NCBI GenBank assembly: GCA_013335095.1
Contig: JAAXWF010000002.1
Location: 146,516-203,565, forward strand
DNA: 57,050 nucleotides
Source: a candidate division WWE3 bacterium
Lineage (GTDB): Bacteria > Patescibacteriota > 4484-211 > GCA-002791395
Reading direction: 5' to 3'
The notes beneath the pieces were generated by a model. It worked only from the letters and a program-made list of their open reading frames with translations. It did not search any database and was not told the DNA's origin. The position numbers were made by a program, and so were the translations under genes. Positions 5,883 to 45,050 of the stretch are shown piece by piece; the stretch's first letter is position 1, and every line of letters begins with the position of its first letter.

Positions 5883-8018
5883 ATGTCGAGTTTTAAAAAG
5901 TCTTTATTTTCAGCTAACCTTTTGGGATTAGCGCTGGTATGTTTTGTCACATTCTTTTTATATTCAGCCCCCCCCACGGTGACAGCCGCTGGGGCTACGT
6001 ACTACATGTCCCCAAGTGGAATAGATACTAATCCGGGAACATCTGCGCAACCCGTAAAAACTCTTAAAAAAGCGTTATCACTGGTACAAGCAGGGGATAC
6101 CGTGATAATAAGAAACGGTACCTATAAGGAGATTGTTGACCTGACGTTAACAACGAAAGGTACCGCAAATGCCCCTATCACTGTTAAAGGGGAAACGCCG
6201 GGTCAAGCACTATTTGATGCGAGTGGATTAACAATAGGTTTCGCCGAAGCTTTTGTGTCTCTAACAAATGCTGAATATTATAATTTTGAAAACTTTTCGG
6301 TAATTAACTCAAAAGGTAAGGGGTTACGGTTTCGTTCACCCCATAATGTAAACATCCGCAAACTCGATCTATCGAATAACTATGCTAATGGCCTTCTGAT
6401 ATTCGATCCCGTCAACAGCGTTATTGAAGATTGTATTATCTCTTGGAACGTAAAAGAATACACCTATAACCCTGGACGATTCACCGAGCCAGATGGACAC
6501 GGCGGCACACGGGTCGGAGGATGGCCGTCAGGGTTCATGGCTTATAATTCAACAAATACGATACTTCGGAATAACAAGGTATTTGATAATGATGGTGAGG
6601 GGATTATCTGTGAAAGGTCCTGCACTATTCAAAACAATGAGGTTTATAACAATAGAACGGTCCAGATTTACACCAATACACAAAGTTCTCTAGTTGAGAA
6701 AAATCTAATGTACGCTATAACGCGCGGAGGTGCCGGATTTGGAATGGCCGACGAAAAGGGAAATGGAATCGGAGGAAATAATATTATTCGTAATAATGTG
6801 ATAATTGGGACCGATAAAGGAATCAGCGTATTTCAGTATATGTCGGTGTTTAATACGAATGGTGATATTTACGAGCACAATACAATTATAAATACTGGGA
6901 CTCAAGGTCTTCGGATTAGAACATCAAGTGCAAAAGGAATGACTTTTCGAAACAATATCGTCCAGAGTGAACGAGGCGTACTTCTCGAATATAATTCAAA
7001 TCTAGATTCAAAGTTGAGTAATAATATTTTTTATTCAGCGACACGTCCAGCTGATACAGGAAAAACTGTTGCCTGGAATGGAAATACCATTACGTATAAA
7101 GCATTTATTGCTGCTGCTGGTAATACAGCAGAAAATAACCAATATATCAATCCACAATTTATCGGAACAATAAATTCGCTAAATCCTCAAGATTATCGAA
7201 TAAAAATAAATTCTCCAGCGATAAATGCAGGAGGAACAAACACCGACATGTTTGATTTCAATCAATATCCGCGAACGTCACCCCCAGATATCGGTGCATT
7301 TGAGTACGAAACACTAATCCCGCTGGGATCCCCAACCCCAACAACGAGTCCATCACCAACGCCATCAAATACGAACCATTGCCAACCACTTGGAGATATT
7401 GACTGCTCTGGTTCGATTTCGACATCCGACTTGAATCAAATAGTCTCTGGCATTGGACAAAATTCAATACTGCTAGACCTAGATAATTCAACACAAGTCA
7501 ACACGCTCGATTATGGCATCGCATATACCAATTATCAATCCGGATCACCGACTCCAGTTATAACAAATATCGTACGCAACGGGTCATTCGATGATAATAA
7601 AACAAACTGGACATATTTTACCGATGGAACCGGACAGTTTGATATTGTACCCAATCAACCCGAGGGGAATGCCGCAACAATTGCAGTAAATACAGCCGGT
7701 ACAAATGAACAGCTGTATCAGACGGGCATTTCACTTATTGCCAATACAAGATATCGGTTAACGTTCAATGCGTACTCTTCAACTGGAAATAATCTAAAAG
7801 TTTCGATGATTAAACACACAACGCCGTATACCAATTATGGACTATCTGACTTTACTCTTGACCTAACAACGCAATGGCAAACATTTACAACTGAATTTAC
7901 AACGACTGGATTTAGCGGATCAACGATAGATACACGGTTGCGATTCTTCTTAAATGGGTCAGCTCAAGATAATGATCACTATTTTATTGACTCAATTGTA
8001 TTAAACAGAATTGAATAG
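5883..8018 (+). CDS. Secreted right-handed parallel beta-helix (pectate-lyase-fold) protein with a dockerin-like module and a CBM4/9-like module.
   Basis: It has an N-terminal TM/signal segment. Repeated NN(I/V)xxNN beta-helix turns are present (LRNNKVFDNDGEGI, IQNNEVYNN, IIRNNVIIG, FRNNIVQS). The C-terminal module from 7377 to 8015 is paralogous to 3961-4587. The start codon lies only 2 nt after the upstream stop, which suggests an operon. Confidence 0.8.
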   Translation: MSSFKKSLFSANLLGLALVCFVTFFLYSAPPTVTAAGATYYMSPSGIDTNPGTSAQPVKTLKKALSLVQAGDTVIIRNGTYKEIVDLTLTTKGTANAPITVKGETPGQALFDASGLTIGFAEAFVSLTNAEYYNFENFSVINSKGKGLRFRSPHNVNIRKLDLSNNYANGLLIFDPVNSVIEDCIISWNVKEYTYNPGRFTEPDGHGGTRVGGWPSGFMAYNSTNTILRNNKVFDNDGEGIICERSCTIQNNEVYNNRTVQIYTNTQSSLVEKNLMYAITRGGAGFGMADEKGNGIGGNNIIRNNVIIGTDKGISVFQYMSVFNTNGDIYEHNTIINTGTQGLRIRTSSAKGMTFRNNIVQSERGVLLEYNSNLDSKLSNNIFYSATRPADTGKTVAWNGNTITYKAFIAAAGNTAENNQYINPQFIGTINSLNPQDYRIKINSPAINAGGTNTDMFDFNQYPRTSPPDIGAFEYETLIPLGSPTPTTSPSPTPSNTNHCQPLGDIDCSGSISTSDLNQIVSGIGQNSILLDLDNSTQVNTLDYGIAYTNYQSGSPTPVITNIVRNGSFDDNKTNWTYFTDGTGQFDIVPNQPEGNAATIAVNTAGTNEQLYQTGISLIANTRYRLTFNAYSSTGNNLKVSMIKHTTPYTNYGLSDFTLDLTTQWQTFTTEFTTTGFSGSTIDTRLRFFLNGSAQDNDHYFIDSIVLNRIE

Positions 8019-11103: not shown

Positions 11104-12557
11104 ATATCTCTAGCATATTACTTTCAACAAAGGAACTAAGCGCTCTGACAAACTCGCTTACAATAGCCGGTTGGGTTGCAATAATTACCACATTAATAGC
11201 CCTCCCACTCGCAATAGCGATAACGACATGGAATGTTAAAGCGAGCAATTTCATTCGCAACATTCTAATGATCCCACTTTTTATTCCCCCGTATGTTCAT
11301 GCCCTTACTTGGATAAATGCTATTTATCTACTAATAAAGTTTGACGTAGCACAATACAACCTATTAACAGCCATGCGATCTGTTCCAGGATCAATTATTA
11401 TTTTAAGTATTAGTTATTTTCCACTGGCTTTTATGCTTATATCTCGCACCGCCGAAAAAATTCCGACCCAGCTCATTCATGCAGCGCGAATGACCCATTC
11501 AACATTGAGTATTATTACGCACATCATTTTGCCGCTCATTAAAGGATCGATAATTACGGCTGCACTACTAGTGTTTGTTCTAGCATTTAACACCTTTGAT
11601 GTCCCGGCTTATTTTGAAACAAATGTTTTTCTCACCGAAATATTTACCCAATTTAGTAGTAAATTTAATACACTTAAAGCACTACAGTTAAGTGCCGTAC
11701 CCTTTGTTATTTCGGCCGGATTATGGACGATGGCGTTATTAATCCCCAAAGAAACACCGTTTTATACCACATCTCAATTACGGGAAGGGACAAAACCCGA
11801 AGCGCCACAAGTAATTACCCGATCGATCAAGATAATTATTGTACTTTTTGCCATCATCGGCATTGGTATACCTTTATTTTCGATACTATTCGGGAGTATT
11901 TTGTTTAATCCCGTAATGCCTCAAGATATCCATAAGTTACAACCAGTTATCATTGATACGACGTTTATCACGATATTATCGAGTTTTGTCACGGTGATCA
12001 TGGGTATTGGCACCTACTTAATATTCTATCGGAATAAGATCGGGCGGATCACGCTATTATCGCTTTTAGCTGTACCTGCGATGACCTATGCTATTCTATT
12101 CATTACAGGCTTTAATCGCGCATCGCTTCAATGGATATATGGGAGTCCATTAGTTCTACTCGCGGCATATGGATTACGATTTTTACCAATTATAAGCGAG
12201 ATTATTTACGGTCACGTTCAATTTCTTAATCAACAGTTTCTACAGGCATCGCTGTTAGTTCGACCAATCGATTACATTAGTATCAGAAAGATTATACTTC
12301 CGTTGATGATGCCGGCACTGGTTATTGGATGGGGTATAGCATGGTGGTTAGCCGCATCGGAGCTACCGATCACACTACTCATTCAACCACCGGGATTTCA
12401 GACAATTACCAGCCGATTGTATATATTTTTACATTACGGATCCAAAGAACTCATGAATACCCTCACACTCTTATTGTTAGTTTTATGTTTTATACCAATT
12501 ATTATTGTCCAAAGTTTGGTACTATCAAAACAATCGAATGTCAAAAAACGCAATTAG
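11100..12557 (+). CDS. ABC transporter permease with duplicated 6-TM modules (FbpB/ThiP type).
   Basis: The 485-aa protein is a polytopic membrane protein. Its start forms an ATGA overlap with the upstream stop codon. Its size and position between the binding protein and the ATPase fit this role. Confidence 0.85.
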   Translation: MNISSILLSTKELSALTNSLTIAGWVAIITTLIALPLAIAITTWNVKASNFIRNILMIPLFIPPYVHALTWINAIYLLIKFDVAQYNLLTAMRSVPGSIIILSISYFPLAFMLISRTAEKIPTQLIHAARMTHSTLSIITHIILPLIKGSIITAALLVFVLAFNTFDVPAYFETNVFLTEIFTQFSSKFNTLKALQLSAVPFVISAGLWTMALLIPKETPFYTTSQLREGTKPEAPQVITRSIKIIIVLFAIIGIGIPLFSILFGSILFNPVMPQDIHKLQPVIIDTTFITILSSFVTVIMGIGTYLIFYRNKIGRITLLSLLAVPAMTYAILFITGFNRASLQWIYGSPLVLLAAYGLRFLPIISEIIYGHVQFLNQQFLQASLLVRPIDYISIRKIILPLMMPALVIGWGIAWWLAASELPITLLIQPPGFQTITSRLYIFLHYGSKELMNTLTLLLLVLCFIPIIIVQSLVLSKQSNVKKRN

Positions 12558-13274: not shown

Positions 13275-13676
13275 CTATTCGACAGGCACCAGACAAACGC
13301 CGAGACGATACCGGCGATTATCTTCCCGCACCCCTAGGGAAATCTCCCGGAGAGTACGCACGACGATGCCGCCGGACCGACTCTGATCAGATGGCCACGC
13401 GGCAACGACCAGATCCTCAAGCATGACGACCTCAGCAGTTAGCTGGGCGTTCGCCTCGGCTTGGGCAGTTAGTGGCCCCTGAGCCTCGACGACCTTCTGC
13501 ATAAGAATAGGCCGAGCCTTGGTAATCGCGTCAGTGCGATTGCGGCCTAGGACATAGGTCTGGGACCCAATATCGGACGGCCCATCCACAGTGCTAATTC
13601 GGGATGAAAAGGTTACCCGCCAGACAAATTCCCCATCCGGGGTTGGCGTACTCGCAACCGGTTCTCGTGTAGTCAT
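13275..13676 (-). CDS. Hypothetical protein (133 aa) in a G+C-rich island.
   Basis: The ORF is preceded by CAGGAG 8 nt before the ATG and by a TATAAT box further upstream. Two 60-nt lines inside it gave about 53% and 65% G+C by hand count. I recognise no family. Confidence 0.6.
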   Translation of the reverse strand: MTTREPVASTPTPDGEFVWRVTFSSRISTVDGPSDIGSQTYVLGRNRTDAITKARPILMQKVVEAQGPLTAQAEANAQLTAEVVMLEDLVVAAWPSDQSRSGGIVVRTLREISLGVREDNRRYRLGVCLVPVE

Positions 13677-31657: not shown

Positions 31658-34600
31658 TTACTCACCACACTTCAAACCGACTTCCAGGCCGATTCGTGCG
31701 ATTTCTGCCGCCGCCGTTTTATCACCCGCTTGCTGACGAGAGATCGCGACGTTCAGCTGATCGATCAAAGCAGCGCAATCACCCGTGGGGGCAGTTGCCG
31801 GCTGTGTTGTACCACTATCAACCGGATTGACTGCGGGTGCTGTTGTAGTAGCACTCGCCCCCGTATCGGCTGACGCGACACCTTCTCCCCGCAAGAATCG
31901 GGTTAAGGCAATATTCAGGTTCGATCCATCGGTAGTCAAACCATCCGGACGGACCGTATACGCCTTAACCAAGAACGGCACTTTCGTGTTGCCGGTCCTG
32001 AACTCAAACTGCGGTTTGATATACACAAACGACGCAGCAGAGCCGTCTGCGCTCATGACCGGAACCATAATCTGGTTCCCCCAGCGCAGCATACCATTCT
32101 GGGATGGTTTGAAGGTAGGCTGCCCAGTTCGAGTCAAATAGGTATCGATGTAGCCTTGCACCTGCTCGGTGCTGACTACACTTACCCCTTGCGGCATTGT
32201 CCACGCCGCAAACTGACCGTACCGAGTCCCCATTCGCACGACCAGATAGGCCCGTAGAATCGACTTCGATACCACCTGGCCATTCTCTTTACCTGACTGG
32301 TTCAGAGGAATTGCCAGAACCGGCTCATTCGCCTCACCACCTGGCAAACGCACCGTCATGTACCGCGCAGGTACCGGAGCAGTTGCGTCATTGTACGCCT
32401 CTGACGGCACAAGCCACACGTTATCGGTGTTATACAGTGAGTCAGGACTATCAACATGGTAGTTCTGGAACACCCTGACCTGTACATTAAACACATCCTC
32501 AGGATATCGGACTTGCGCCCTCAGTTCCTGAGGCATTTCGGCGGCTGGCCTAAACAGGCTCGGATAAACCCGTCGCCATGTTGCCAACACTGGCTCGTTC
32601 TCATCCTGTGCATACAACGAGAGATCCCCGTTGTACGCTCCAAGAGTCGCTTTAACCGAAGCGCGCAGATAGCTAAAGCTGCGGCCATCGTTTTCGTTAA
32701 AGCCTCCTTGGGCTAGCGCATAGGGGAAGTTACTCCCGATGCTCGCACCATCCGTCATCCAGACAAGCTGCTGACCGCCGTTCACCGCAAAGGGATCATT
32801 ATCCCAGGCGATAAACGGAGCCAGCAGGCGAAGCTGGTCGAGCGGACGCCGATGTATGAACAGCCGACTCTCGGGTGTAATCTGGCTACTAATCAGCACC
32901 CGATAATCGTCAAGCGCTACGGCAATGATAAATCGCCGCAAACCGCTGCCGATTTGCAAGCCACCAGTACCATCATAGTGAGGCTTTCCGGCAACGCCTG
33001 AAGGGTTGCCCTCCTCATCCATCAGTGTATTGGCGATCACCCAGTTATTCGGGATCTCACCAAAACACACGCCTGGTTTAGCCGGAATCAGAGACTGATC
33101 ACCAGTCATCGGGACATTATCCACGATAAACTGAGGCGATCCATCCCTATTGGTTTCAGTTGCCGAAGCAACGACCCATCCGAGCCCGCAGGGAAACTGC
33201 AGATGGACATTACTCCACGATCGATTCTGCAGTGATCCAGGGTTAATCTCACGTACCGCCGACATCACCGTTCCACCCGGCGTAAAGATCAGATCGGTAT
33301 CGCTAAAGTCATAGAAGGTCTGGCCTTCTTTCTGATCATTAGCGTATGCCGCAACCGCGCTCCAGTCTTGGACACGCGCTTGGGCCAAAGAGGCCTCGTT
33401 GCTTCGATAATCCTCATCAGACAGAACCGGCGTGTATGGGTAATCCTGTGTTTGAACAGAATCAATCCCATATGCCCGCTTGGTCGCTGCTAGATGTTCA
33501 GCGATGTACGGCTTCTCTTTAACCAGCTGCTCGGGACCGACCATAAAGGTCTGTGTCACCGATGGCCAGCCGAAGACGTGACAGAACACCAGCGCACCAA
33601 AGGCGATACCCGCCATACGACCGAGTGATGGCTTCTTTTTCCCCATGATCAGGTCAACGACGCCAATGATGAACGCCGAAATGACCAACCAGAAGATCAG
33701 CACCATCACATACGCGTCAGACGAAATCAGCACGGATGCAATGATCGGTGTCAGAGCAGCAAATGAGAGCAAGCCGAATCGCCCCTTGAAGAGGGCAAAC
33801 ACAGCCACTCCCGTTGCCACGAAAGACAGGATCGGCATTACCCGCATCAGCGGTATGCGCACCAGGACATCGGTAAAACCAGCCCCGGTATAGTGATCGT
33901 GCGCCTTGAAGACGAGCTCGAAGGGAGCAAAGTACATTCCGGCGATACCAACCACGATATACAGCAGTGCCAACAGGCCGAAACCGTTGAACACACGTTC
34001 CTTGATCGACTCCATCGACCCATTGAGGTGATGGAATGTCGCTCGTACTGCGAGCAGTACCGCGGCCGTCGCGATCAGGAAAATCAGCCACACGCGAATT
34101 GCCGAGAACAGTGGCAATTCCCACATGTAGAAGCTCGTATCCATACCGAAAACCTTGTCGTTGATCGCATCCCCAAAGGGGACACGGTTGACAAACGGTA
34201 GGATCCGATCAGTCATGCCCGAAAGGGTTAGGCCTCCAAACAGCGTCCCAAGAACCATCACCACCCAGTTTGCTAACCGCATGGTGTCGGAATTCTCGAG
34301 AGAGTCGAGAATGTCTACCGTATCAGGCACTTTTGGTCGAATTGGGAGGGGACAGGCTTCATTGACCCCGAGTAACGCGGTCAAGGTGAGCACGGTACCC
34401 ACGATCCATAGGCCGATCCGCCACCAAAGCGGCGTCAGGAACACATCGGCCTGCCCCATATTGGCAAACCACCAGTATTCCACTACGGTCTTTGAAATCG
34501 CTTCAACGCACCAGGTGATTGCTGAGAGTCCGGTGAACACCGCGACAGCAACAATAACCCCGGCGGTTATAGCGTTCTTACGCATTCGCAGATATGCGAT

Positions 34601-34792
34601 ACCACCCAGCACCACTGCCGCCACGATATTGATGATCATGACGTACGTCGATAGGCCACTGGATACGTTTCCGTCACCAGCTACCGACGGTGCTGAAAAT
34701 GCCATGACGATAATGCTAAGCACCACGTACACAGCTACTCCAAGCGCTGTCGGCCATACGGGCCTCCGTTGGATCTGCTTTCCTGGGCTCAT
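31658..34792 (-). CDS. UPF0182-family large membrane protein.
   Basis: It has about 7 N-terminal TM helices and a large C-terminal extracytoplasmic domain. The overall size (about 1044 aa) fits the family. Segments such as EYWWFANMGQADVFLTPLWWRIGLW and YMTVRLPGG...LRAYLVVRMGTRYGQ...VSTEQVQGYIDT resemble UPF0182 proteins (e.g. the mycobacterial Rv3193c type). I prefer the ATG at 34792, which has AAGGAGGA 8 nt upstream. Confidence 0.7.
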   Translation of the reverse strand: MSPGKQIQRRPVWPTALGVAVYVVLSIIVMAFSAPSVAGDGNVSSGLSTYVMIINIVAAVVLGGIAYLRMRKNAITAGVIVAVAVFTGLSAITWCVEAISKTVVEYWWFANMGQADVFLTPLWWRIGLWIVGTVLTLTALLGVNEACPLPIRPKVPDTVDILDSLENSDTMRLANWVVMVLGTLFGGLTLSGMTDRILPFVNRVPFGDAINDKVFGMDTSFYMWELPLFSAIRVWLIFLIATAAVLLAVRATFHHLNGSMESIKERVFNGFGLLALLYIVVGIAGMYFAPFELVFKAHDHYTGAGFTDVLVRIPLMRVMPILSFVATGVAVFALFKGRFGLLSFAALTPIIASVLISSDAYVMVLIFWLVISAFIIGVVDLIMGKKKPSLGRMAGIAFGALVFCHVFGWPSVTQTFMVGPEQLVKEKPYIAEHLAATKRAYGIDSVQTQDYPYTPVLSDEDYRSNEASLAQARVQDWSAVAAYANDQKEGQTFYDFSDTDLIFTPGGTVMSAVREINPGSLQNRSWSNVHLQFPCGLGWVVASATETNRDGSPQFIVDNVPMTGDQSLIPAKPGVCFGEIPNNWVIANTLMDEEGNPSGVAGKPHYDGTGGLQIGSGLRRFIIAVALDDYRVLISSQITPESRLFIHRRPLDQLRLLAPFIAWDNDPFAVNGGQQLVWMTDGASIGSNFPYALAQGGFNENDGRSFSYLRASVKATLGAYNGDLSLYAQDENEPVLATWRRVYPSLFRPAAEMPQELRAQVRYPEDVFNVQVRVFQNYHVDSPDSLYNTDNVWLVPSEAYNDATAPVPARYMTVRLPGGEANEPVLAIPLNQSGKENGQVVSKSILRAYLVVRMGTRYGQFAAWTMPQGVSVVSTEQVQGYIDTYLTRTGQPTFKPSQNGMLRWGNQIMVPVMSADGSAASFVYIKPQFEFRTGNTKVPFLVKAYTVRPDGLTTDGSNLNIALTRFLRGEGVASADTGASATTTAPAVNPVDSGTTQPATAPTGDCAALIDQLNVAISRQQAGDKTAAAEIARIGLEVGLKCGE

Positions 34793-34912
34793 ACGAACCA
34801 TCCTCCTTGGCTTAAACGAAACCCATACGCCTCCCACATAGGAAGCGGACTTTAGGTCGTCGACATTATACTATCGGACACACGGTAAAACAATATTGGA
34901 TATGTAACAAAC

Positions 34913-34941
34913 AAAAAAAGGCCGGAACGATTGTTCCGGCC
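34913..34941 (-). terminator. Intrinsic terminator after gene 34992..35456.
   Basis: A perfect 9-bp stem (GGCCGGAAC-GATT-GTTCCGGCC) is followed on the minus strand by 7 T. Confidence 0.7.
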
Positions 34942-34991
34942 AAGTAATTAAAGATATAAAACAAACGGCGCTACGTGTTTACATTAGCGAG

Positions 34992-35456
34992 CTAGATCTT
35001 GAGCGATCGGACACGGGCAAGCGCGATACTGACCCGCGCTTCATGAAGCAAGAACTCACGCCGGAACCACAGCATGCCGATGAGCAGGATCGGCACACTG
35101 ATGATCGTATTCGTGAGCAGAAATACAGCAGGATTGGCGATGAACCCCGCTGGTCCCATCCGACGAATAAAGATGAACTGGATGATCACGGCTATCAGCT
35201 GAAGCATGCTCACCCCGATAGCCCGCCAGGTCATCTTTTGCGCAGAAGTTGCCCAGACACCATACACCAGAAACAGCGTTGCGGCGAAACCGATAAGGTA
35301 GCCGATCGCCATCTGGGTCAAGTCACACCGCACCTGCGGGAACGCCAGGTAGTAGATCAGCGAGAGTACGAACCATCCCAGACAGGCGAGTAGCCAGCCG
35401 ATGGAAAGTTCGTAGAACCGTTGGGTCGACAGCATAACCTGCGTCCTGTTTCTCAC
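34992..35456 (-). CDS. Small 4-TM membrane protein, hypothetical.
   Basis: The GTG start has GAGGAGG 7 nt upstream. Four hydrophobic segments are visible. The gene lies in the G+C-rich island. Confidence 0.55.
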   Translation of the reverse strand: MRNRTQVMLSTQRFYELSIGWLLACLGWFVLSLIYYLAFPQVRCDLTQMAIGYLIGFAATLFLVYGVWATSAQKMTWRAIGVSMLQLIAVIIQFIFIRRMGPAGFIANPAVFLLTNTIISVPILLIGMLWFRREFLLHEARVSIALARVRSLKI

Positions 35457-35541
35457 CTCAACACCTCCTCATGAAAACGGCGCCGAATGATCAGCTTGAT
35501 GATAGTAACAAAAAGTAAAGAAAATATCAAACTATAGGACT

Positions 35542-35575
35542 AAACAACAAAGGCCGAAGTATTGCTACTCCGGCC
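35542..35575 (-). terminator. Probable terminator hairpin after gene 35599..36093.
   Basis: The hairpin is GGCCG-A-AGTA-TTGC-TACT-C-CGGCC. On the minus strand it is followed by TTTGTTGTTT, a weak T-run. Confidence 0.4.
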
Positions 35576-35598
35576 ATATTCACCGACCCGATTAGAAA

Positions 35599-36093
35599 CT
35601 AGAAGCCATGGGCGTAAAAGCCCATCTCACCGCCGGCCTGAAAGCTATCGTCACCTTGGGCGACGTGGCGCAGATGCGATACGACGAGAGACTCCTCAAA
35701 GCTCTCAAGGTCGTCATCATCACCTTCAGGCTGGGCATCGAGCCGGGCCTCGATAAGACACCGCGCGTACTTGCCCGCGACGGCTCGGACCAAGCCCGTC
35801 TCGCTTCGAATGGCCCCTCGGTACACCAGTCTAAAGACAACGCTATACGCATTGCCGTCAGGCAGAGGAACCACACTCGAAGTGATGTGTGCATCGCTCC
35901 CAAAGGCATCAGTTAACGCCTGATGCCAATACTTAAACGGATCCACGATCGGATCAGGAGCAATGTAAGCTAAAAAGCGAACGATCGTTACACCGACGTC
36001 GATTGATTCTTGACCGATCACGTACAACTGCCCAAACGGGGCACCATTCTTACCGCGACGAATCGTCGCATTCGGAAAAATTCCGTCCATCAC
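35599..36093 (-). CDS. Hypothetical protein (164 aa) in the G+C-rich island.
   Basis: CAGGAGG lies 5 nt upstream of the ATG. An upstream promoter is visible (TTGAAT, 17-nt spacer, TATAGT with an extended TG). I recognise no family. Confidence 0.55.
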   Translation of the reverse strand: MMDGIFPNATIRRGKNGAPFGQLYVIGQESIDVGVTIVRFLAYIAPDPIVDPFKYWHQALTDAFGSDAHITSSVVPLPDGNAYSVVFRLVYRGAIRSETGLVRAVAGKYARCLIEARLDAQPEGDDDDLESFEESLVVSHLRHVAQGDDSFQAGGEMGFYAHGF

Positions 36094-40812: not shown

Positions 40813-41721
40813 TTAACGATTAGATACGAGTGTTTTGGTTATTTGGCCGGCTAGTTCTTGCCCAGCATCTTTTTGATCCGACTGAGACAATACGCTTACG
40901 GCATAGGGACGATTGTGTAGATACACGACTCCGGCATCATGGAATAATCCGTTAAGATATCCGGTTTTATGGGCTATAAGTACCGATGGTTCAACGTATC
41001 GGGGCAATCCTTCGTTGAGTTGCTGATCTAATAACATTGATACCATTGTTGTGGTATTGGATGTGTTGGCAAGTTTGCGTTGGTAGAGAAGTTCCCAAAA
41101 TAGATTGATGTCATGGGCACTGGTATACGCAGGAGTGCCTAAAATTGAATCGGTCATTTGATGTTCGGTAAGAAAATTTTTTATGGTGATAAATCCGACT
41201 TTTTCGACGAGCGTAGTTGCCAGAGGGTTATCCGAGACAGTGATCATTTGCCGGACCGCGTCTTTTATTGTTACGGCAGGGGATTCAGAGGTTGCTTCAA
41301 TGAGGACCTCGTCTTCGGTCAGTGTTCCTCGTTCAATTTCTTGATATACGGTTGCCATGACCCACAGTTTGTATAAGCTTGCGGTTTCAAAGATTTCATG
41401 GTCGTTTACTGAATATTGTTTAGAGAAGTCGTTTAAGTTTGTGATGACGATCGCGGCTTTACCTGGAAAATTGTGCACCAGTTCATTTATCGTCGAGGTT
41501 GATGAATCGAGTATGGTACTGGTTGGAGTTGGCGCAACAATAGATGGGGTCGGCGTGGGTTTTGACTGGGCAATCGTCACTCCGGATGCAGTTTGGACGA
41601 TTTGGTACCGAGTACTAGCCAAAATAGCTACGATTAATGCACTTGTCGCGATGGAGCTAAATACTGGGGTGCGTATAAATGACGTAGCTAGGTTTAGGGC
41701 TTCGTTGATTTTTTTATTCAT
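40813..41721 (-). CDS. Class-A beta-lactamase-like serine hydrolase, secreted.
   Basis: The SxxK motif (ASLYKL), SDN motif (VSDNP) and KTG motif (HKTGY) occur in the correct order and spacing. The N-terminus has a TM/signal segment and a PT linker. Confidence 0.7.
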   Translation of the reverse strand: MNKKINEALNLATSFIRTPVFSSIATSALIVAILASTRYQIVQTASGVTIAQSKPTPTPSIVAPTPTSTILDSSTSTINELVHNFPGKAAIVITNLNDFSKQYSVNDHEIFETASLYKLWVMATVYQEIERGTLTEDEVLIEATSESPAVTIKDAVRQMITVSDNPLATTLVEKVGFITIKNFLTEHQMTDSILGTPAYTSAHDINLFWELLYQRKLANTSNTTTMVSMLLDQQLNEGLPRYVEPSVLIAHKTGYLNGLFHDAGVVYLHNRPYAVSVLSQSDQKDAGQELAGQITKTLVSNR

Positions 41722-41831
41722 AGTAATTGGGTGGTACTAGTCTATTTTACAGGCAAATAGTACCTCACGTATCTTAATAATTGTTTAAAAAATGGTCAAC
41801 TCTTGGAGTTAGAACAAATAAGGTAAATATC

Positions 41832-41846
41832 AATGGTGAGCGAGAA
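41832..41846. repeat. Degenerate direct copy of the 3' end of tRNA-Leu (candidate att remnant).
   Basis: AATGGTGAGCGAGAA at 41832-41846 matches AATGGTGGGCGAGAG at 43184-43198 at 13 of 15 positions, in the same orientation. The two copies bracket the Shedu gene. Confidence 0.4.
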
Positions 41847-41915
41847 GTTTTTGTCCGGTAAGAAACCAAACTAATTTAAGGTTGATATATGAAGTGCAAT
41901 TCGACGTGTAGCAAA

Positions 41916-43103
41916 TCAAAATGGTTGAGTTAACACTGGGTCGGGTTCTGGGCTTACAACTGTATTGGTAATAATGTTTTGTGCACGATGAAGCAATTCA
42001 TCGAAAGTTATAATTTCTGGGTTTGTCGTATGTCTTCTGAGTAGTTCGAATGAACGAATTTTATTTTGATTGTGTCTACGACCATCATGGAATTGGTTAA
42101 GTGAACCAACAACTAAAATGCCTTTCGGTTGGTACGAATAGATGGGTTTTTCTTGATCAAAGCCATCTTCATCTGTTGGACGGAAAACTTCACGGTGTTG
42201 TACACCAACCCAATCTTGGATCGTCGCCTGCATTTGAGCAACTCCCCCGGCAAGTTCATCCGACGGTCGATAGATACCTGAACGGTACTCCGTGGTATTC
42301 AGTAATGTGGTATCCGGTTTCTTTATCTCTACAAAAACGGTTGTCGCAATTTCTGCTGCTACTTGGGTAAATCCATCAGGCCGCCTACCGGCTCCAACTA
42401 CTGTGTGGCCAGTTGTTGGTTGTTCAAACGTATGACCAATCCGATGTAACCACTTGTAACTTAGTCCATAGCCAAAAATCCATTCATTAGCTTCAAAAAA
42501 ATCCTGCCACATAGGTTCACTCCAATCCGATGCATTAATATGCTGTCCAAATTGATCAAATGCTAATTGTCGCAATTCCTGAATACGTCCGTAGGATAAT
42601 CTATTTGCACTCTCAGGGCTAATTTCCGCAAGTTCTGACCAAAAATCGTCCGAGTAATTACCATGAAGAAGTCCTTGAATTATTGCTTGTCTTCCTTGTG
42701 GAACGCGAACAACTTCATCCGCTCTTTCCAGTGTAAAAGTCGGTACGGCACCATTCATTCCCAAGTTGTTCCTGCAGTATTCGAATAATCGATCTAAGAT
42801 TGCTTGTAGAGCAAGGGTTTGCTCACTATTTAGCTTCATGCGAACCTCTTGTCCAGCTGGCAACTGCCTGAGGTTAAAATGGTCACAATCCTCGAAGGTT
42901 CCGTCTGCTTTTCGCCGTTGGTGGACGATCGATAGCCTTAACGGGGCATTTGGATTTTGTGGGTTGGGGTCAATAAATTCAGCCTTTACTACTTTTCGTG
43001 TCGACGACTGCCCGTCACTATTTGGCAAAGGTATTGGTTCAAACTGACGGATGTCCGGAATATAGTTGACCGGCATCCAATTGTGCTCGTCAGAAATCGG
43101 CAT
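41916..43103 (-). CDS. sduA: Shedu anti-phage defence protein (SduA, DUF4263 PD-(D/E)xK nuclease domain).
   Basis: The C-terminal half matches the DUF4263 pattern: MWQDFFEANEWIFGYGL...GRRPDGFTQ...VFVEIKKPDTTLL...AGGVAQMQATIQDW...KGILVVGSL...EIITFDELLHRAQ. Confidence 0.8.
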   Translation of the reverse strand: MPISDEHNWMPVNYIPDIRQFEPIPLPNSDGQSSTRKVVKAEFIDPNPQNPNAPLRLSIVHQRRKADGTFEDCDHFNLRQLPAGQEVRMKLNSEQTLALQAILDRLFEYCRNNLGMNGAVPTFTLERADEVVRVPQGRQAIIQGLLHGNYSDDFWSELAEISPESANRLSYGRIQELRQLAFDQFGQHINASDWSEPMWQDFFEANEWIFGYGLSYKWLHRIGHTFEQPTTGHTVVGAGRRPDGFTQVAAEIATTVFVEIKKPDTTLLNTTEYRSGIYRPSDELAGGVAQMQATIQDWVGVQHREVFRPTDEDGFDQEKPIYSYQPKGILVVGSLNQFHDGRRHNQNKIRSFELLRRHTTNPEIITFDELLHRAQNIITNTVVSPEPDPVLTQPF

Positions 43104-43185
43104 GCCGACATTTTACACCCAAAAACAACATAAGTAGTACTCTGGGAGACTTTAGAAAAGAAAATATGCTTGCAAGCAAGAAGAA

Positions 43186-43275
43186 TGGTGGGCGAGAGAG
43201 GACTCGAACCTCCAAGGGATTTGAATGCCCACAACGACCTCAACGTTGCGCGTCTGCCAGTTTCGCCACTCGCCC
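43186..43275 (-). tRNA. tRNA-Leu (anticodon GAG), long variable arm, encoded CCA.
   Basis: I folded it by hand. The acceptor stem pairs GGGCGAG with CTCGCCC. The anticodon stem-loop is CAACG-TTGAGGT-CGTTG. The variable arm is long, and the T arm is GGAGG-TTCGAGT-CCTCT. Confidence 0.9.
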
Positions 43276-43360
43276 GAAGCAAAACAACAGTTGTATTGTA
43301 GCACATACCTACAGTAAATCTGGACAACACCAACCGAATTCGCTACTCTATATATAGGTA

Positions 43361-43957
43361 ATGTTAAAAAAGATCACTTCCACTTGGCACGGCTTTAGTA
43401 CTCTCCAAAAAATACTCTTCATAGTTGGAATTCTACTTGGATTCATTGCTGCAACATTAGTGGTATTTGAACTTCTCTCACGTGTATGCCCGGCTTATTA
43501 TCCTGCAGTTGACGTAAGCTGTGCCGAACTTGATGAAAAGTACGCCCCAAACGGAGGTGAAATACCTTACTTCATGCAACCCCAAAAACAATCGCTTGAT
43601 GAAGTTCTAGAAGATCAAATCATCTATGTCCCGCAAGAAGAGATTGGTACATTAAACGGGATAACCTGCGGCTACTATGCGTACGTATCAAAAGATCTTC
43701 CTGGACCAGCCAAAACGTACGTATCGATACATGAAGCAATGCACGTTCTTGGAGAAGGTAGCGAAACACAAGCCAACCTAAAAGCCGCTAAACTAGCACC
43801 GTTTGGCATGATCGTAACAGTCATTCATACCGCACTCGCAAGCTTTACCCGTACCCCAATCCAAAACTGGCCATGCACCTTAGGTCGATTATGGGGAACG
43901 TTCAAAGTATATTTCCTCGGAAATGATTGGAGTGGTGGGGATATGACTATCTTTTAA
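43361..43957 (+). CDS. Membrane-anchored hypothetical protein with an HExxH motif (putative small zinc metalloprotease).
   Basis: It has an N-terminal TM helix and the motif HEAMHVLGE. Its 3' end overlaps the convergent gene by 11 nt. Confidence 0.45.
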   Translation: MLKKITSTWHGFSTLQKILFIVGILLGFIAATLVVFELLSRVCPAYYPAVDVSCAELDEKYAPNGGEIPYFMQPQKQSLDEVLEDQIIYVPQEEIGTLNGITCGYYAYVSKDLPGPAKTYVSIHEAMHVLGEGSETQANLKAAKLAPFGMIVTVIHTALASFTRTPIQNWPCTLGRLWGTFKVYFLGNDWSGGDMTIF

Positions 43958-45050
43958 TATCGGATCGCCATGGAGCAGCGTTGTGTGATTTCTTTTCTAA
44001 ATAACGAGCCGTATACTGTAATCCAGCAGCCGAAGAAACAATTCCAAATATCGCCGTAATAAGCATCCATCCTTCGAGTCCCGCAGTCTCTGGTAAATTC
44101 GTATTTTCATTTTGTTGAGCAGCCAAAACCTGAGGTTTATACACCAAACACACCGTCACACTATCAGACGCATAACGATCATTATTAATCACCACATTGA
44201 CCACATTATCAACACACTTTTGAGTATCGTTGGGAACATTCTTTGTATTAGTCTTGGTGACAATAACTAATCGCTCTTGTTGACCTTTTACTAAGGTCGG
44301 AATAGTATGATCGACGCTTCCGTTTAGCCACTCAAGATTATCGGGCAACGTATCGATCAATCGAACATTCGAAAGATCAGATTCACCAACGTTACGTACA
44401 ACAATTTCAAACTCTAATTCTTTACCGGCACTAATTTGCTCAATACGATCGACCCAATCCCCAGAATCTTTAACCCGAACTCGTTTTTGAACTTGAAGAA
44501 CCTGCAAAGATGACGGAGTTGTAGGAGTCGGCGTCAAAGTAACGGTAGCCGATGGTGTAGGGGTCAACGTAACCGTAGTTGTTGGAGTTGGAGTAATCGT
44601 TCCGGTTGGGGTCGGTGTAGGGGTTATCGATGTAGCTGGTGTCGGAGTCGGGGTATCAGTCGCACAAACTTTATCTGACAGTCCTTCCCAAGTGCCATCT
44701 TTCCAATCCAAATTTAACTGCCACTTGGCACAAATTTGACCAAATCCGACCTGGAAGGTTTCGTTGGGTTGAATCGTCTTGGTTCCACGCATATCTCCGC
44801 ATTCTTTTCCATCCCACTGTGCCCAGCAATCGAGTTCCCATTTCACATCGATCGGTGATGTCGTAATGTTTTTAAGCTGATATTTCCCTGGCTTTGACCA
44901 TTCTCCTGACACCGGGGTAATCTCGATACTGTTGACTGAACTTGTAGCAAACACGGCCTTACTACCGACAGCGAGGACTAAAGTCCCTGCCAACATAAAC
45001 GCGAGAGTTCGCCAAAAAACTAGTTGTGGTTGAATTCGTTGGTTTTGCAT
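43947..45050 (-). CDS. Cell-surface protein with a DUF11 repeat domain, a PT linker and a C-terminal sortase-type anchor.
   Basis: A signal peptide is present. The DUF11-like stretch reads ISAGKELEFEIVVRNVGESDLSNVRLIDTLPDNL. The C-terminus has LPETAG, then a hydrophobic helix and a basic tail. Confidence 0.7.
   Translation of the reverse strand: MQNQRIQPQLVFWRTLAFMLAGTLVLAVGSKAVFATSSVNSIEITPVSGEWSKPGKYQLKNITTSPIDVKWELDCWAQWDGKECGDMRGTKTIQPNETFQVGFGQICAKWQLNLDWKDGTWEGLSDKVCATDTPTPTPATSITPTPTPTGTITPTPTTTVTLTPTPSATVTLTPTPTTPSSLQVLQVQKRVRVKDSGDWVDRIEQISAGKELEFEIVVRNVGESDLSNVRLIDTLPDNLEWLNGSVDHTIPTLVKGQQERLVIVTKTNTKNVPNDTQKCVDNVVNVVINNDRYASDSVTVCLVYKPQVLAAQQNENTNLPETAGLEGWMLITAIFGIVSSAAGLQYTARYLEKKSHNAAPWRSDIKR

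What the first reader, a model, noticed from the sequence alone, without database searches (positions are those of the whole stretch)
41832..43275. Single-gene Shedu defence mini-island bracketed by tRNA-Leu and a 13/15 direct repeat of its 3' end
The 395-aa protein (41916..43103) carries a clear DUF4263/SduA nuclease domain and lies directly downstream of tRNA-Leu(GAG).

The last nucleotides of the tRNA plus two flanking bases (43184-43198, AATGGTGGGCGAGAG on the plus strand) recur at 41832-41846 (AATGGTGAGCGAGAA). The copy has the same orientation and lies just beyond the other end of the gene. This is the geometry expected for attL/attR after site-specific integration into a tRNA 3' end.

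The bracketed segment is only about 1.35 kb and contains no integrase. It is either the eroded remnant of a larger island or a very small mobilisable defence cassette. Its G+C content looks intermediate by eye, also different from the neighbours.

Shedu itself is known. A minimal tRNA-linked Shedu cassette in a reduced genome is notable.
Basis: partly seen in the sequence, partly recalled or inferred. Interest (0 to 1): 0.7.

Follow-up and report, generated by a model that had tools for sequence, protein, structure and literature searches.

The report
Lone Shedu defence gene beside tRNA-Leu
An intact, ordinary Shedu anti-phage nuclease gene sits directly after a leucine tRNA gene in a Patescibacteria-like genome, and a 14-base echo of the tRNA end just beyond it may be the worn scar of an old insertion, which cannot be proven here.

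Summary
The sequence facts hold. tRNA-Leu(GAG) is at 43186-43275 (-). A 395-aa ORF at 41916-43103 (-) starts 82 nt after the tRNA. The tRNA 3' end plus 2 nt (43184-43198) recurs at 41832-41846 (13/15; 13/14 core).

The ORF is a full-length Type-1 Shedu: Pfam SduA_C 7e-27, SduA_N 2e-10, PADLOC SduA 3e-73. It aligns end to end with B. cereus SduA (8TI8), and nuclease motifs I-IV are intact.

The att reading is plausible but unproven.
- For: the repeat has P about 0.005-0.03 for that position. The only retrievable relative (L216) keeps the tRNA and both 5'-side genes but has an unrelated gene, not Shedu, on the 3' side. Shedu homologues recur in tRNA/tmRNA-linked islands, including an integrase-less islet with clear tRNA-end repeats (L033).
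- Against: the repeat is short. No integrase or recombinase is in the window. The tRNA-proximal spacer weakly resembles L216's flank. No other genome has this gene at tRNA-Leu.

Verdict: a new member of a known kind, of low interest. Side lead: about a third of Shedu homologues end in an SSB-tip-like DDxPF tail.

The parts
43186..43275 (-). tRNA-Leu(GAG), 90 nt, with an encoded CCA. Its 3' end points towards the Shedu gene.
   Evidence: ARAGORN. Sequence and fold. Rfam RF00005, 47.3 bits. 82/90 identical to the orthologous tRNA-Leu(GAG) in relative L216.
43184..43198 (.). Proximal repeat copy: the last 13 nt of the tRNA plus 2 flanking nt. This would be attL under the island model.
   Evidence: The DNA homology with L216 also stops at 43184 (blastn 43184-43305 against L216 335-456, 86%).
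43104..43185 (-). 82-nt spacer between the tRNA 3' end and the sduA start codon. It holds a perfect 12-nt palindrome, TGCTTGCAAGCA (43167-43178), followed on the minus strand by a T-rich run. No consensus promoter or terminator was called here.
   Evidence: Weak collinear similarity to the first 100 nt downstream of tRNA-Leu in L216 (score 22, shuffle P = 0.019; 15 of 1390 real segments reach it).
41916..43103 (-). sduA: a 395-aa single-gene Type-1 Shedu nuclease, intact.
   Evidence: PF14082 7.4e-27 and PF21407 1.6e-10. PADLOC SduA PDLC00394 2.9e-73. Residues 33-378 align to 28-377 of B. cereus SduA 8TI8. Closest homologues are 50-58% identical.
42765..43010 (-). SduA_N domain (aa 32-113), the sensor or regulatory N-terminal domain of B. 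cereus-type Shedu.
   Evidence: Pfam PF21407, 41.5 bits, above the gathering score of 27.
41991..42521 (-). SduA_C / DUF4263 PD-(D/E)xK nuclease domain (aa 195-371). It carries motif I E204, motif II D243, motif III E259 and K261, and motif IV Q290.
   Evidence: These residues are invariant or at least 90% conserved in alignment A1. They are matched to the B. cereus motifs E204, D249, E264/K266 and Q295 listed in bioRxiv 10.1101/2023.08.10.552793.
41919..41969 (-). C-terminal extension of 17 aa ending ...SPEPDPVLTQPF. It is a degenerate form of the acidic [DE][DE]x[ILV]PF tail found on many homologues.
41832..41846 (.). Distal repeat copy (13/15; 13/14 over 41832-41845). It lies 70 nt beyond the sduA stop codon. 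It would be the decayed attR under the island model.
41722..41915 (-). 194-nt spacer between sduA and the next gene. It holds the distal copy and a sigma-70-like promoter match (41799-41771, minus strand) for the downstream serine-hydrolase gene.
   Evidence: No remnants of integrase, recombinase or partner genes by tblastn.
43361..45050 (.). Conserved host flank on the tRNA 5' side: a 198-aa HExxH membrane protein (43361-43957, +) and a 367-aa DUF11 protein (43947-45050, -).
   Evidence: Same order and orientation in L216, at 47% and 55% amino-acid identity. Pfam.
40813..41721 (-). Neighbour beyond the distal copy: a Beta-lactamase2-family serine hydrolase. It is not syntenic in any relative found.
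   Evidence: PF13354 9e-37. The best homologue is only 39% identical. Contexts L212-L215 lack tRNA-Leu and Shedu.

Best explanation
The ORF is a functional single-gene Type-1 (B. cereus-type) Shedu nuclease.

By homology it should form a homotetramer. Its N-terminal domains keep the C-terminal PD-(D/E)xK nuclease autoinhibited until foreign DNA is sensed, for example free ends or replication intermediates. It then cuts that DNA without killing the host.

It sits in the variable DNA that begins at the 3' end of tRNA-Leu(GAG) in a Patescibacteria-like genome. It is most likely the surviving cargo of an old site-specific integration at that tRNA. On this reading it is an integrase-less 'islet', and the 14-nt echo of the tRNA end at 41832-41845 is the decaying distal att copy.

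Shown here: gene identity, intact motifs, the geometry, and absence of Shedu directly downstream of the orthologous tRNA in one relative.
Inferred: the biochemical mechanism, from published homologues; the integration history; and transcription, possibly read-through from the tRNA promoter because no promoter match lies in the 82-nt spacer.
For: Identity and integrity: with mechanism taken from bioRxiv 10.1101/2023.08.10.552793 and 10.1101/2023.08.10.552762.

Geometry and repeat. P = 0.0045 to 0.03. It is the only 13/14 echo within 20 kb downstream of any of the four tRNAs.

Relative L216: the tRNA-Leu(GAG) is 82/90 identical and the two 5'-side genes are syntenic. DNA homology ends 2 nt past the tRNA 3' end. 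An unrelated membrane-protein gene, not Shedu, starts 140 nt downstream, and there is no second copy of the 14-mer.

The gene moves alone: only Shedu is shared among seven contexts of its closest clade.

Family habit:
- 11 of 38 Shedu loci have a tRNA or tmRNA within the fetched flank, and 10 of the 11 nearest point their 3' end at Shedu.
- Recombinases abut or overlap the tRNA/tmRNA in L001, L004, L016 and L026.
- L033 is an integrase-less HaeIII-RM plus Shedu islet flanked by ~185-nt direct repeats that end in the tRNA-Arg 3' end.
Against: - The repeat is only 14-15 nt and does not extend. The bona fide repeats in L033 are 20/22 and 30/31, inside ~185-nt units.
- No integrase, recombinase or transposase occurs among the window ORFs of at least 120 aa. 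tblastn with the related islands' recombinases is negative.
- Composition and codon usage are host-typical. This test has little power, because the clade's other hosts have similar GC.
- The closest relatives' islands use large serine recombinases and show no tRNA-end direct repeats.
- The tRNA-proximal spacer has a weak collinear similarity to L216's tRNA-downstream flank (P about 0.02). If real, DNA next to the tRNA is ancestral rather than island-derived.
- L216 ends 336 nt past the tRNA and its downstream gene is not the window's next gene, so it is not a clean empty site.
Confidence: 0.5

Rival explanations
1. The 13/14 repeat is a chance match. Shedu still lies in a variable, horizontally exchanged region that starts at the tRNA-Leu 3' flank. 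The acquired segment has other, probably larger, boundaries or arrived by another route, such as homologous recombination of flanks or a serine-recombinase island that left no direct repeats.
For: - blastn-short E = 4.3 over the window, and P is only 0.03 in the broader test.
- L216's downstream gene differs from both Shedu and the serine hydrolase, so the difference between the genomes is a replacement rather than a simple 1.35-kb insertion.
- The serine-recombinase islands of the closest clade lack direct repeats.
- The spacer shows similarity to L216.
- Clearly foreign high-GC genes lie 6-10 kb further on, at 31658-36093.
Against: The match sits exactly in the first intergenic spacer beyond the gene, in the right orientation, and includes the tRNA terminus (P = 0.0045). 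No other echo occurs in 20 kb.
Confidence: 0.33
2. The gene is an old, vertically inherited resident of this lineage. It happens to lie next to tRNA-Leu, and neither the position nor the repeat reflects mobility.
For: Host-typical GC, GC3 and codon usage. No mobility genes in the window.
Against: - Absent directly downstream of the orthologous tRNA in L216.
- The closest homologues (50-58%) sit in seven unrelated contexts, four of them with recombinases and/or tRNA or tmRNA anchors.
- The flanking host genes' best homologues are only 39-47% identical, less than Shedu's own.
Confidence: 0.12
3. The 1.35-kb segment is a still-active, integrase-less, att-flanked single-gene cassette. It would be comparable to cis-mobilisable elements, excised and moved in trans by an integrase encoded elsewhere.
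For: The geometry of two same-orientation copies. The acceptor-stem/CCA end of this tRNA-Leu is shared by many lineages (at least 120 metagenome hits to the acceptor pattern), so the target would be widely available. The integrase-less islet L033 shows that such structures exist for Shedu.
Against: - The distal copy is mismatched and only 14 nt.
- No identical or near-identical cassette exists anywhere; the best homologue is 58% identical.
- No family member is next to tRNA-Leu.
- The tRNA 3' 18-mer is absent from 2.9 million viral contigs.
- No integrase is in the window.
Confidence: 0.05

Closest known systems
Bacillus cereus B4264 Shedu SduA (PDB 8TI8/8TI9; Type 1A Shedu of Gu et al., bioRxiv 10.1101/2023.08.10.552793)
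   Same: The architecture is the same from end to end: an SduA_N domain, a linker, and a DUF4263 PD-(D/E)xK nuclease. Motif I-IV residues are conserved. It is a single-gene system.
   Different: The sequence relationship is distant (phmmer E 7e-17). The host is a Patescibacteria-like bacterium. The window protein has a 17-aa C-terminal extension ending in PF that B. cereus SduA lacks. Activity is untested.
E. coli SduA (PDB 8PS4/8PS5; Loeff et al., DNA-end sensing and nicking)
   Same: The DUF4263 nuclease core (E 2.6e-07 over aa 257-378). The tetramer and end-sensing model is the best available mechanism.
   Different: The N-terminal domain is different. Only the nuclease core aligns.
tRNA-gene-anchored genomic islands or islets with att direct repeats of the tRNA 3' end (general knowledge, not tested from the literature here; in-session example L033)
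   Same: The position immediately 3' of a tRNA, a same-orientation partial copy of the tRNA 3' end at the far side, and defence cargo.
   Different: There is no integrase. The repeat is only 13/14, against 20/22 to 30/31 within 185-nt units in L033. The segment is only 1.34 kb with one gene, and its composition is not atypical.
Cis-mobilisable elements (CIMEs): att-flanked, integrase-less derivatives of integrative elements (from memory, Streptococcus thermophilus ICESt1/3 literature; not checked here)
   Same: Cargo flanked by two att-like copies, with no recombination genes.
   Different: The att copies here are not identical, and no cognate integrase or mobilisation is known. This is a resemblance only.

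Membership tests
Shedu (SduA) | DUF4263 / SduA_C domain above the curated threshold | tested here: met
   PF14082, 94.9 bits against a cut-off of 27, covering profile positions 3-159 of 159. PADLOC SduA 2.9e-73.
Shedu (SduA) | PD-(D/E)xK active-site motifs I-IV present | tested here: met
   E204, D243, E259/K261 and Q290 are conserved in A1. They correspond to B. cereus E204, D249, E264/K266 and Q295. HMMER places the motif II Asp one residue off in a loop.
Shedu (SduA) | Type 1 architecture: an N-terminal sensor domain ahead of the nuclease | tested here: met
   PF21407 SduA_N, 41.5 bits against a cut-off of 27. Full-length alignment to 8TI8.
Shedu (SduA) | Single-gene system with no conserved partner gene | tested here: met
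   Across seven contexts of the closest clade, only sduA is shared.
Shedu (SduA) | Homotetramer, nuclease activity and anti-phage protection | not testable with these tools
   Requires expression, SEC-MALS or cryo-EM, and plaque assays.
tRNA-integrated genomic island | Lies immediately 3' of a tRNA gene | tested here: met
   82 nt from the tRNA-Leu 3' end, on the same strand.
tRNA-integrated genomic island | Flanked by direct repeats that include the tRNA 3' end | tested here: inconclusive
   13/14 (13/15), P = 0.0045-0.03, with no extension. The positive control L033 has much longer repeats.
tRNA-integrated genomic island | Integrase or recombinase gene within or next to the island | tested here: not met
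   None among the window ORFs of at least 120 aa. tblastn is negative. The rest of the 358-kb contig was not available.
tRNA-integrated genomic island | Absent from the same site in related genomes (empty site) | tested here: inconclusive
   L216 has the orthologous tRNA and 5' flank but an unrelated gene, not Shedu, 140 nt downstream. The contig ends after 336 nt, the far flank is not syntenic, and the divergence is large (47-55% amino-acid identity).
tRNA-integrated genomic island | Atypical base composition or codon usage | tested here: not met
   GC z = +0.3, GC3 z = -0.35, low RSCU distance. The test has low power because related hosts have similar GC.
Integrase-less mobilisable cassette (CIME-like) | The same cassette recurs at the same att site in other genomes | tested here: not met
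   The best homologue is 58% identical. No clade member lies next to tRNA-Leu. The tRNA 3' 18-mer is absent from viral contigs.
Integrase-less mobilisable cassette (CIME-like) | A cognate integrase elsewhere in the genome, and detectable excision | not testable with these tools
   Only 57 kb of the genome is available, and no read data.

The most novel reading that the evidence does not exclude
The segment 41832-43198 could be a minimal, att-flanked, single-gene defence cassette. A tRNA-Leu-targeting integrase encoded elsewhere could still capture and move it in trans among Patescibacteria, which would make Shedu a free-standing mobile 'gene cassette' at a widely conserved tRNA-Leu 3' end.

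A second unexcluded novelty concerns the protein itself. Its terminal ...QPF may be a relic of an SSB-C-terminal-tip mimic ([DE][DE]x[ILV]PF) carried by about a third of its homologues. That would imply docking of Shedu tetramers onto SSB-interacting proteins.
Probability: 0.07. Interest if true: 0.55.

Novelty: new member of a known kind. Interest (0 to 1): 0.2.

Why it matters
This adds a well-supported, intact Type-1 Shedu to a Patescibacteria-like genome. It also shows one more case of defence cargo sitting in the variable DNA at a tRNA 3' end. Neither point is surprising to specialists.

The modest value lies in two things. First, in this Patescibacteria-associated clade sduA travels as a one-gene unit between small tRNA/tmRNA-anchored islands. 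Second, there is the side observation that many Shedu proteins end in an SSB-tip-like tail. If that tail is functional, it could bear on how Shedu is recruited or regulated.

Tried and rejected
1. Exact look-up of the window's Shedu protein on public contigs: not on record.
2. Empty-site search through the distal neighbour (serine hydrolase). The genome-contig scan found no relative. The best protein homologues are at most 39% identical. Their contexts L212-L215 have no tRNA-Leu, no Shedu and no synteny.
3. Metagenome scan with the tRNA-Leu acceptor pattern. It gave at least 120 loci, but the best tRNA is only 79/90 identical and no locus shares host genes with the window.
4. Search for eroded partner, integrase or recombinase genes in the two spacers and the whole window, by tblastn with all genes of the related islands: nothing.
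5. Extension of the repeat by gapped local alignment: none.
6. Reading the distal copy as a decayed second tRNA: no tRNA or other RNA family is there.
7. Compositional evidence for foreign origin: none. I judged the test low-powered.
8. Direct repeats of the tRNA or tmRNA ends in the closest clade's islands (L001, L003, L004): none convincing. This fits serine-recombinase integration, so those islands are poor models for a direct-repeat att.
9. Viral-contig scans. The tRNA 3' 18-mer is absent, and only 7 distant Shedu relatives were found.
10. Literature check for an SSB-like tail on Shedu: not mentioned in the two primary Shedu preprints or a 2026 review. The library is incomplete, so this is not proof of novelty.
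Full report
**1. Observation**

- The window has tRNA-Leu(GAG) at 43186..43275 on the minus strand. The gene is 90 nt, has an encoded CCA and folds as a class-II tRNA (Rfam tRNA 47 bits).
- A 395-aa ORF runs from 43103 down to 41916 on the same strand. It starts 82 nt after the tRNA 3' end.
- The plus-strand string AATGGTGGGCGAGAG (43184-43198) is the last 13 nt of the tRNA plus two flanking bases. It recurs as AATGGTGAGCGAGAA at 41832-41846, in the same orientation and 70 nt beyond the ORF's stop codon.
- The core is 13/14 (41832-41845). Neither ungapped nor gapped alignment extends it.

**2. Is the repeat more than chance?**

- In the whole window the 15-mer with up to 2 mismatches is expected 0.08 times.
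- I tested the last 45 nt of the tRNA plus 10 nt of flank against the 194-nt spacer 41722-41915, in the same orientation. A match of at least 13/15 arose in 0.45% of 2000 dinucleotide shuffles and in none of 586 other real 194-nt segments of the window.
- A looser test, local alignment of the spacer against 257 nt around the tRNA, gives P = 0.03.
- As a window-wide blastn-short hit the E-value is only 4.3. The evidence is therefore the position, not the match itself.
- None of the other three tRNAs has a 13/14 echo within 20 kb downstream, and tRNA-Leu has only this one.
- I take the repeat as nominally significant (about 0.005-0.03), but short and chosen after the fact.

**3. The gene**

- Pfam gives SduA_C (PF14082, 7.4e-27, full profile) and SduA_N (PF21407, 1.6e-10), both above gathering.
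- PADLOC gives 16 SduA models, the best at 2.9e-73.
- Residues 33-378 align with 28-377 of B. cereus SduA (8TI8). The nuclease core also matches E. coli SduA 8PS4.
- Gu et al. list the B. cereus catalytic motifs as E204, D249, E264/K266 and Q295, and show that D249 and E264 are needed for defence. The corresponding window residues E204, D243, E259/K261 and Q290 are invariant or at least 90% conserved in an alignment of 21 homologues.
- The gene is therefore an intact Type-1, B. cereus-type Shedu.
- The mechanism is inferred from the literature. The homotetramer is autoinhibited by its N-terminal domains and is non-abortive. [quoted passage not shown]
- No consensus promoter or terminator lies in the 82-nt spacer. 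Read-through from the tRNA promoter is possible, but that is inference.

**4. Composition**

The gene has GC 0.436 (z = +0.3), GC3 0.348 (z = -0.35), and one of the lowest codon-usage distances for its size.
- The test has little power. Shedu genes and loci of the closest clade have GC 0.35-0.38 and 0.32-0.42, close to this host.

**5. Mobility genes**

- All 44 ORFs of at least 120 aa that were scanned were run against Pfam. None is an integrase, recombinase or transposase.
- tblastn with every gene of the related islands finds only Shedu in the window, and nothing in the two spacers.

**6. Relatives of the gene**

- The closest homologues are 50-58% identical. This is more than the best hits of the flanking host genes, which are 39% and 47%.
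- Seven distinct contexts were read: L001-L004, L205, L206-209 and L210/211. Only sduA is shared among them.
- Four of the seven have a large serine recombinase and/or a tRNA or tmRNA upstream.
  - In L001 the recombinase ORF overlaps the last 63 nt of tRNA-Trp.
  - In L004 it overlaps the last 63 nt of the tmRNA.
- These islands show no convincing tRNA-end direct repeats, as expected for serine recombinases.
- In GTDB representative genomes the best match is 40% identical, spread over many phyla.
- Of 38 loci examined, 11 have a tRNA or tmRNA in the fetched flank. In 10 of those 11 the nearest one points its 3' end at Shedu.
- L016 has a tyrosine integrase abutting tRNA-Ala. L026 has a serine recombinase overlapping tRNA-Asn.
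- L033 (an Oscillospiraceae MAG) is the best parallel. It is a four-gene islet with no integrase: M.HaeIII-like methylase, HaeIII endonuclease, a second methylase, and Shedu. It is bounded by ~185-nt direct repeats, each ending in the 3' 21 nt of tRNA-Arg, and FtsH lies beyond.
Where it is clear, however, the repeats are far stronger than in the window.
- No family member was found next to tRNA-Leu.

**7. Relatives of the host**

- The host lineage is poorly sampled.
- The only informative relative is L216, a 2.1-kb Logan contig found through the 198-aa neighbour.
- L216 has the same order and orientation as the window: DUF11 protein (55% identity), HExxH membrane protein (47%), tRNA-Leu(GAG) (82/90).
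- Nucleotide homology (86% over 124 nt) covers the tRNA and 30 nt upstream. It stops at window position 43184, 2 nt past the tRNA 3' end.
- Downstream, L216 has an unrelated membrane-protein gene starting 140 nt from the tRNA. There is no Shedu and no second copy of the 14-mer (best 9/15).
- This fits a variable region beginning at the tRNA 3' end.
- It is not a clean empty site, for three reasons:
  - the contig ends 336 nt past the tRNA;
  - its downstream gene is not the window's next gene;
  - at this divergence intergenic DNA is mostly unalignable.
- One point runs against the att model. The window's tRNA-proximal spacer shows a weak, collinear similarity to L216's first 100 nt after the tRNA (score 22; shuffle P = 0.019; 15 of 1390 real segments reach it). 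This could be a shared T-rich tRNA trailer. If it is true orthology, the DNA next to the tRNA is ancestral and the crossover was not inside the tRNA.

**8. Verdict**

- The Shedu call is secure.
- That the gene was acquired horizontally into the tRNA-Leu 3' flank is likely.
- That the 14-nt echo is a decayed att site bounding a 1.34-kb remnant is the single best reading, at about even odds.
- The main rival is that the echo is a coincidence and the acquired region has other boundaries.
- An active trans-mobilisable cassette is unlikely.
- This is a new member of known kinds: Type-1 Shedu, and a tRNA-linked defence islet.

**9. Seen in passing**

- 40 of the 120 best Shedu homologues end in PF, nearly all preceded by an acidic run that matches the SSB C-terminal tip DDDIPF (the SSB-Ct motif is as stated in PMC5872125).
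- The window protein ends ...PVLTQPF, and its closest clade has lost the tail.
- The two primary Shedu preprints and a 2026 review that I checked do not mention this tail.

Noticed in passing
window 41919-41969 (C-terminal 17 aa of SduA); homologues P0019-P0119: 40 of the 120 best Shedu homologues end in PF, nearly all as an acidic tail such as ...DDDIPF...EDDLPF or ...DDEIPF. This matches the SSB C-terminal tip motif DDDIPF (PMC5872125). The window protein ends ...PEPDPVLTQPF, a degenerate form. Its closest clade (P0002-P0016), B. cereus SduA and E. coli SduA lack the tail. It is not mentioned in the Shedu papers I checked. It could tether Shedu tetramers to SSB-interacting proteins, or act as an SSB-like autoinhibitory tip.
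   Followed up: partly
L033 6348-11413: This is an integrase-less defence islet: C5 methylase, HaeIII endonuclease, a second C5 methylase, and Shedu. It is bracketed by ~185-nt direct repeats (about 6428-6612 and 11228-11413), each ending in the last 21 nt of tRNA-Arg, with FtsH beyond. It is a clear att-flanked Shedu islet.
   Followed up: partly
L001 2903-2965; L004 4064-4126; L026 1258-1299: Large serine recombinase ORFs end inside the 3' part of a tRNA-Trp, a tmRNA and a tRNA-Asn on the opposite strand, overlapping by 63, 63 and 42 nt. The elements appear to supply the RNA gene's 3' end together with the recombinase C-terminus. No tRNA-end direct repeats were found at the far side.
   Followed up: partly
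38 Shedu loci (L001-L038): 11 of the 38 loci have a tRNA or tmRNA within the fetched flank. In 10 of those 11 the nearest one points its 3' end towards the Shedu gene, at 2.2-9.2 kb. None is as close as the window's 82 nt.
   Followed up: partly
window 31658-36093 and 13275-13676: These genes are strong compositional outliers. The UPF0182 protein (1059 aa; GC 0.54, GC3 0.60) and two small ORFs (GC 0.55, GC3 0.59-0.72), plus a 133-aa ORF (GC 0.58), stand against a window mean of GC 0.42 and GC3 0.38. They look like recently acquired foreign DNA, 6-10 kb from the Shedu gene.
   Followed up: no
window 43167-43178: A perfect 12-nt palindrome, TGCTTGCAAGCA, lies 8 nt after the tRNA-Leu 3' end and is followed on the tRNA strand by a T-rich run. 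It may be a tRNA terminator or processing signal. The terminator scan did not call it.
   Followed up: no
window 43104-43185 against L216 236-336: There is a weak collinear similarity between the spacer downstream of tRNA-Leu in the window and in relative L216 (CATATT-TTCTTTTC-TA...AGTAC..CTTA; shuffle P = 0.019). It may be a conserved tRNA trailer. If so, it argues against island DNA starting at the tRNA end.
   Followed up: partly
window 674-24842: The window holds a cluster of large secreted-type proteins with Dockerin_1, CBM_4_9, right-handed beta-helix and FG-GAP domains. Four proteins carry dockerin. These are unexpected-looking surface or carbohydrate-binding modules for a Patescibacteria-like genome.
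   Followed up: no
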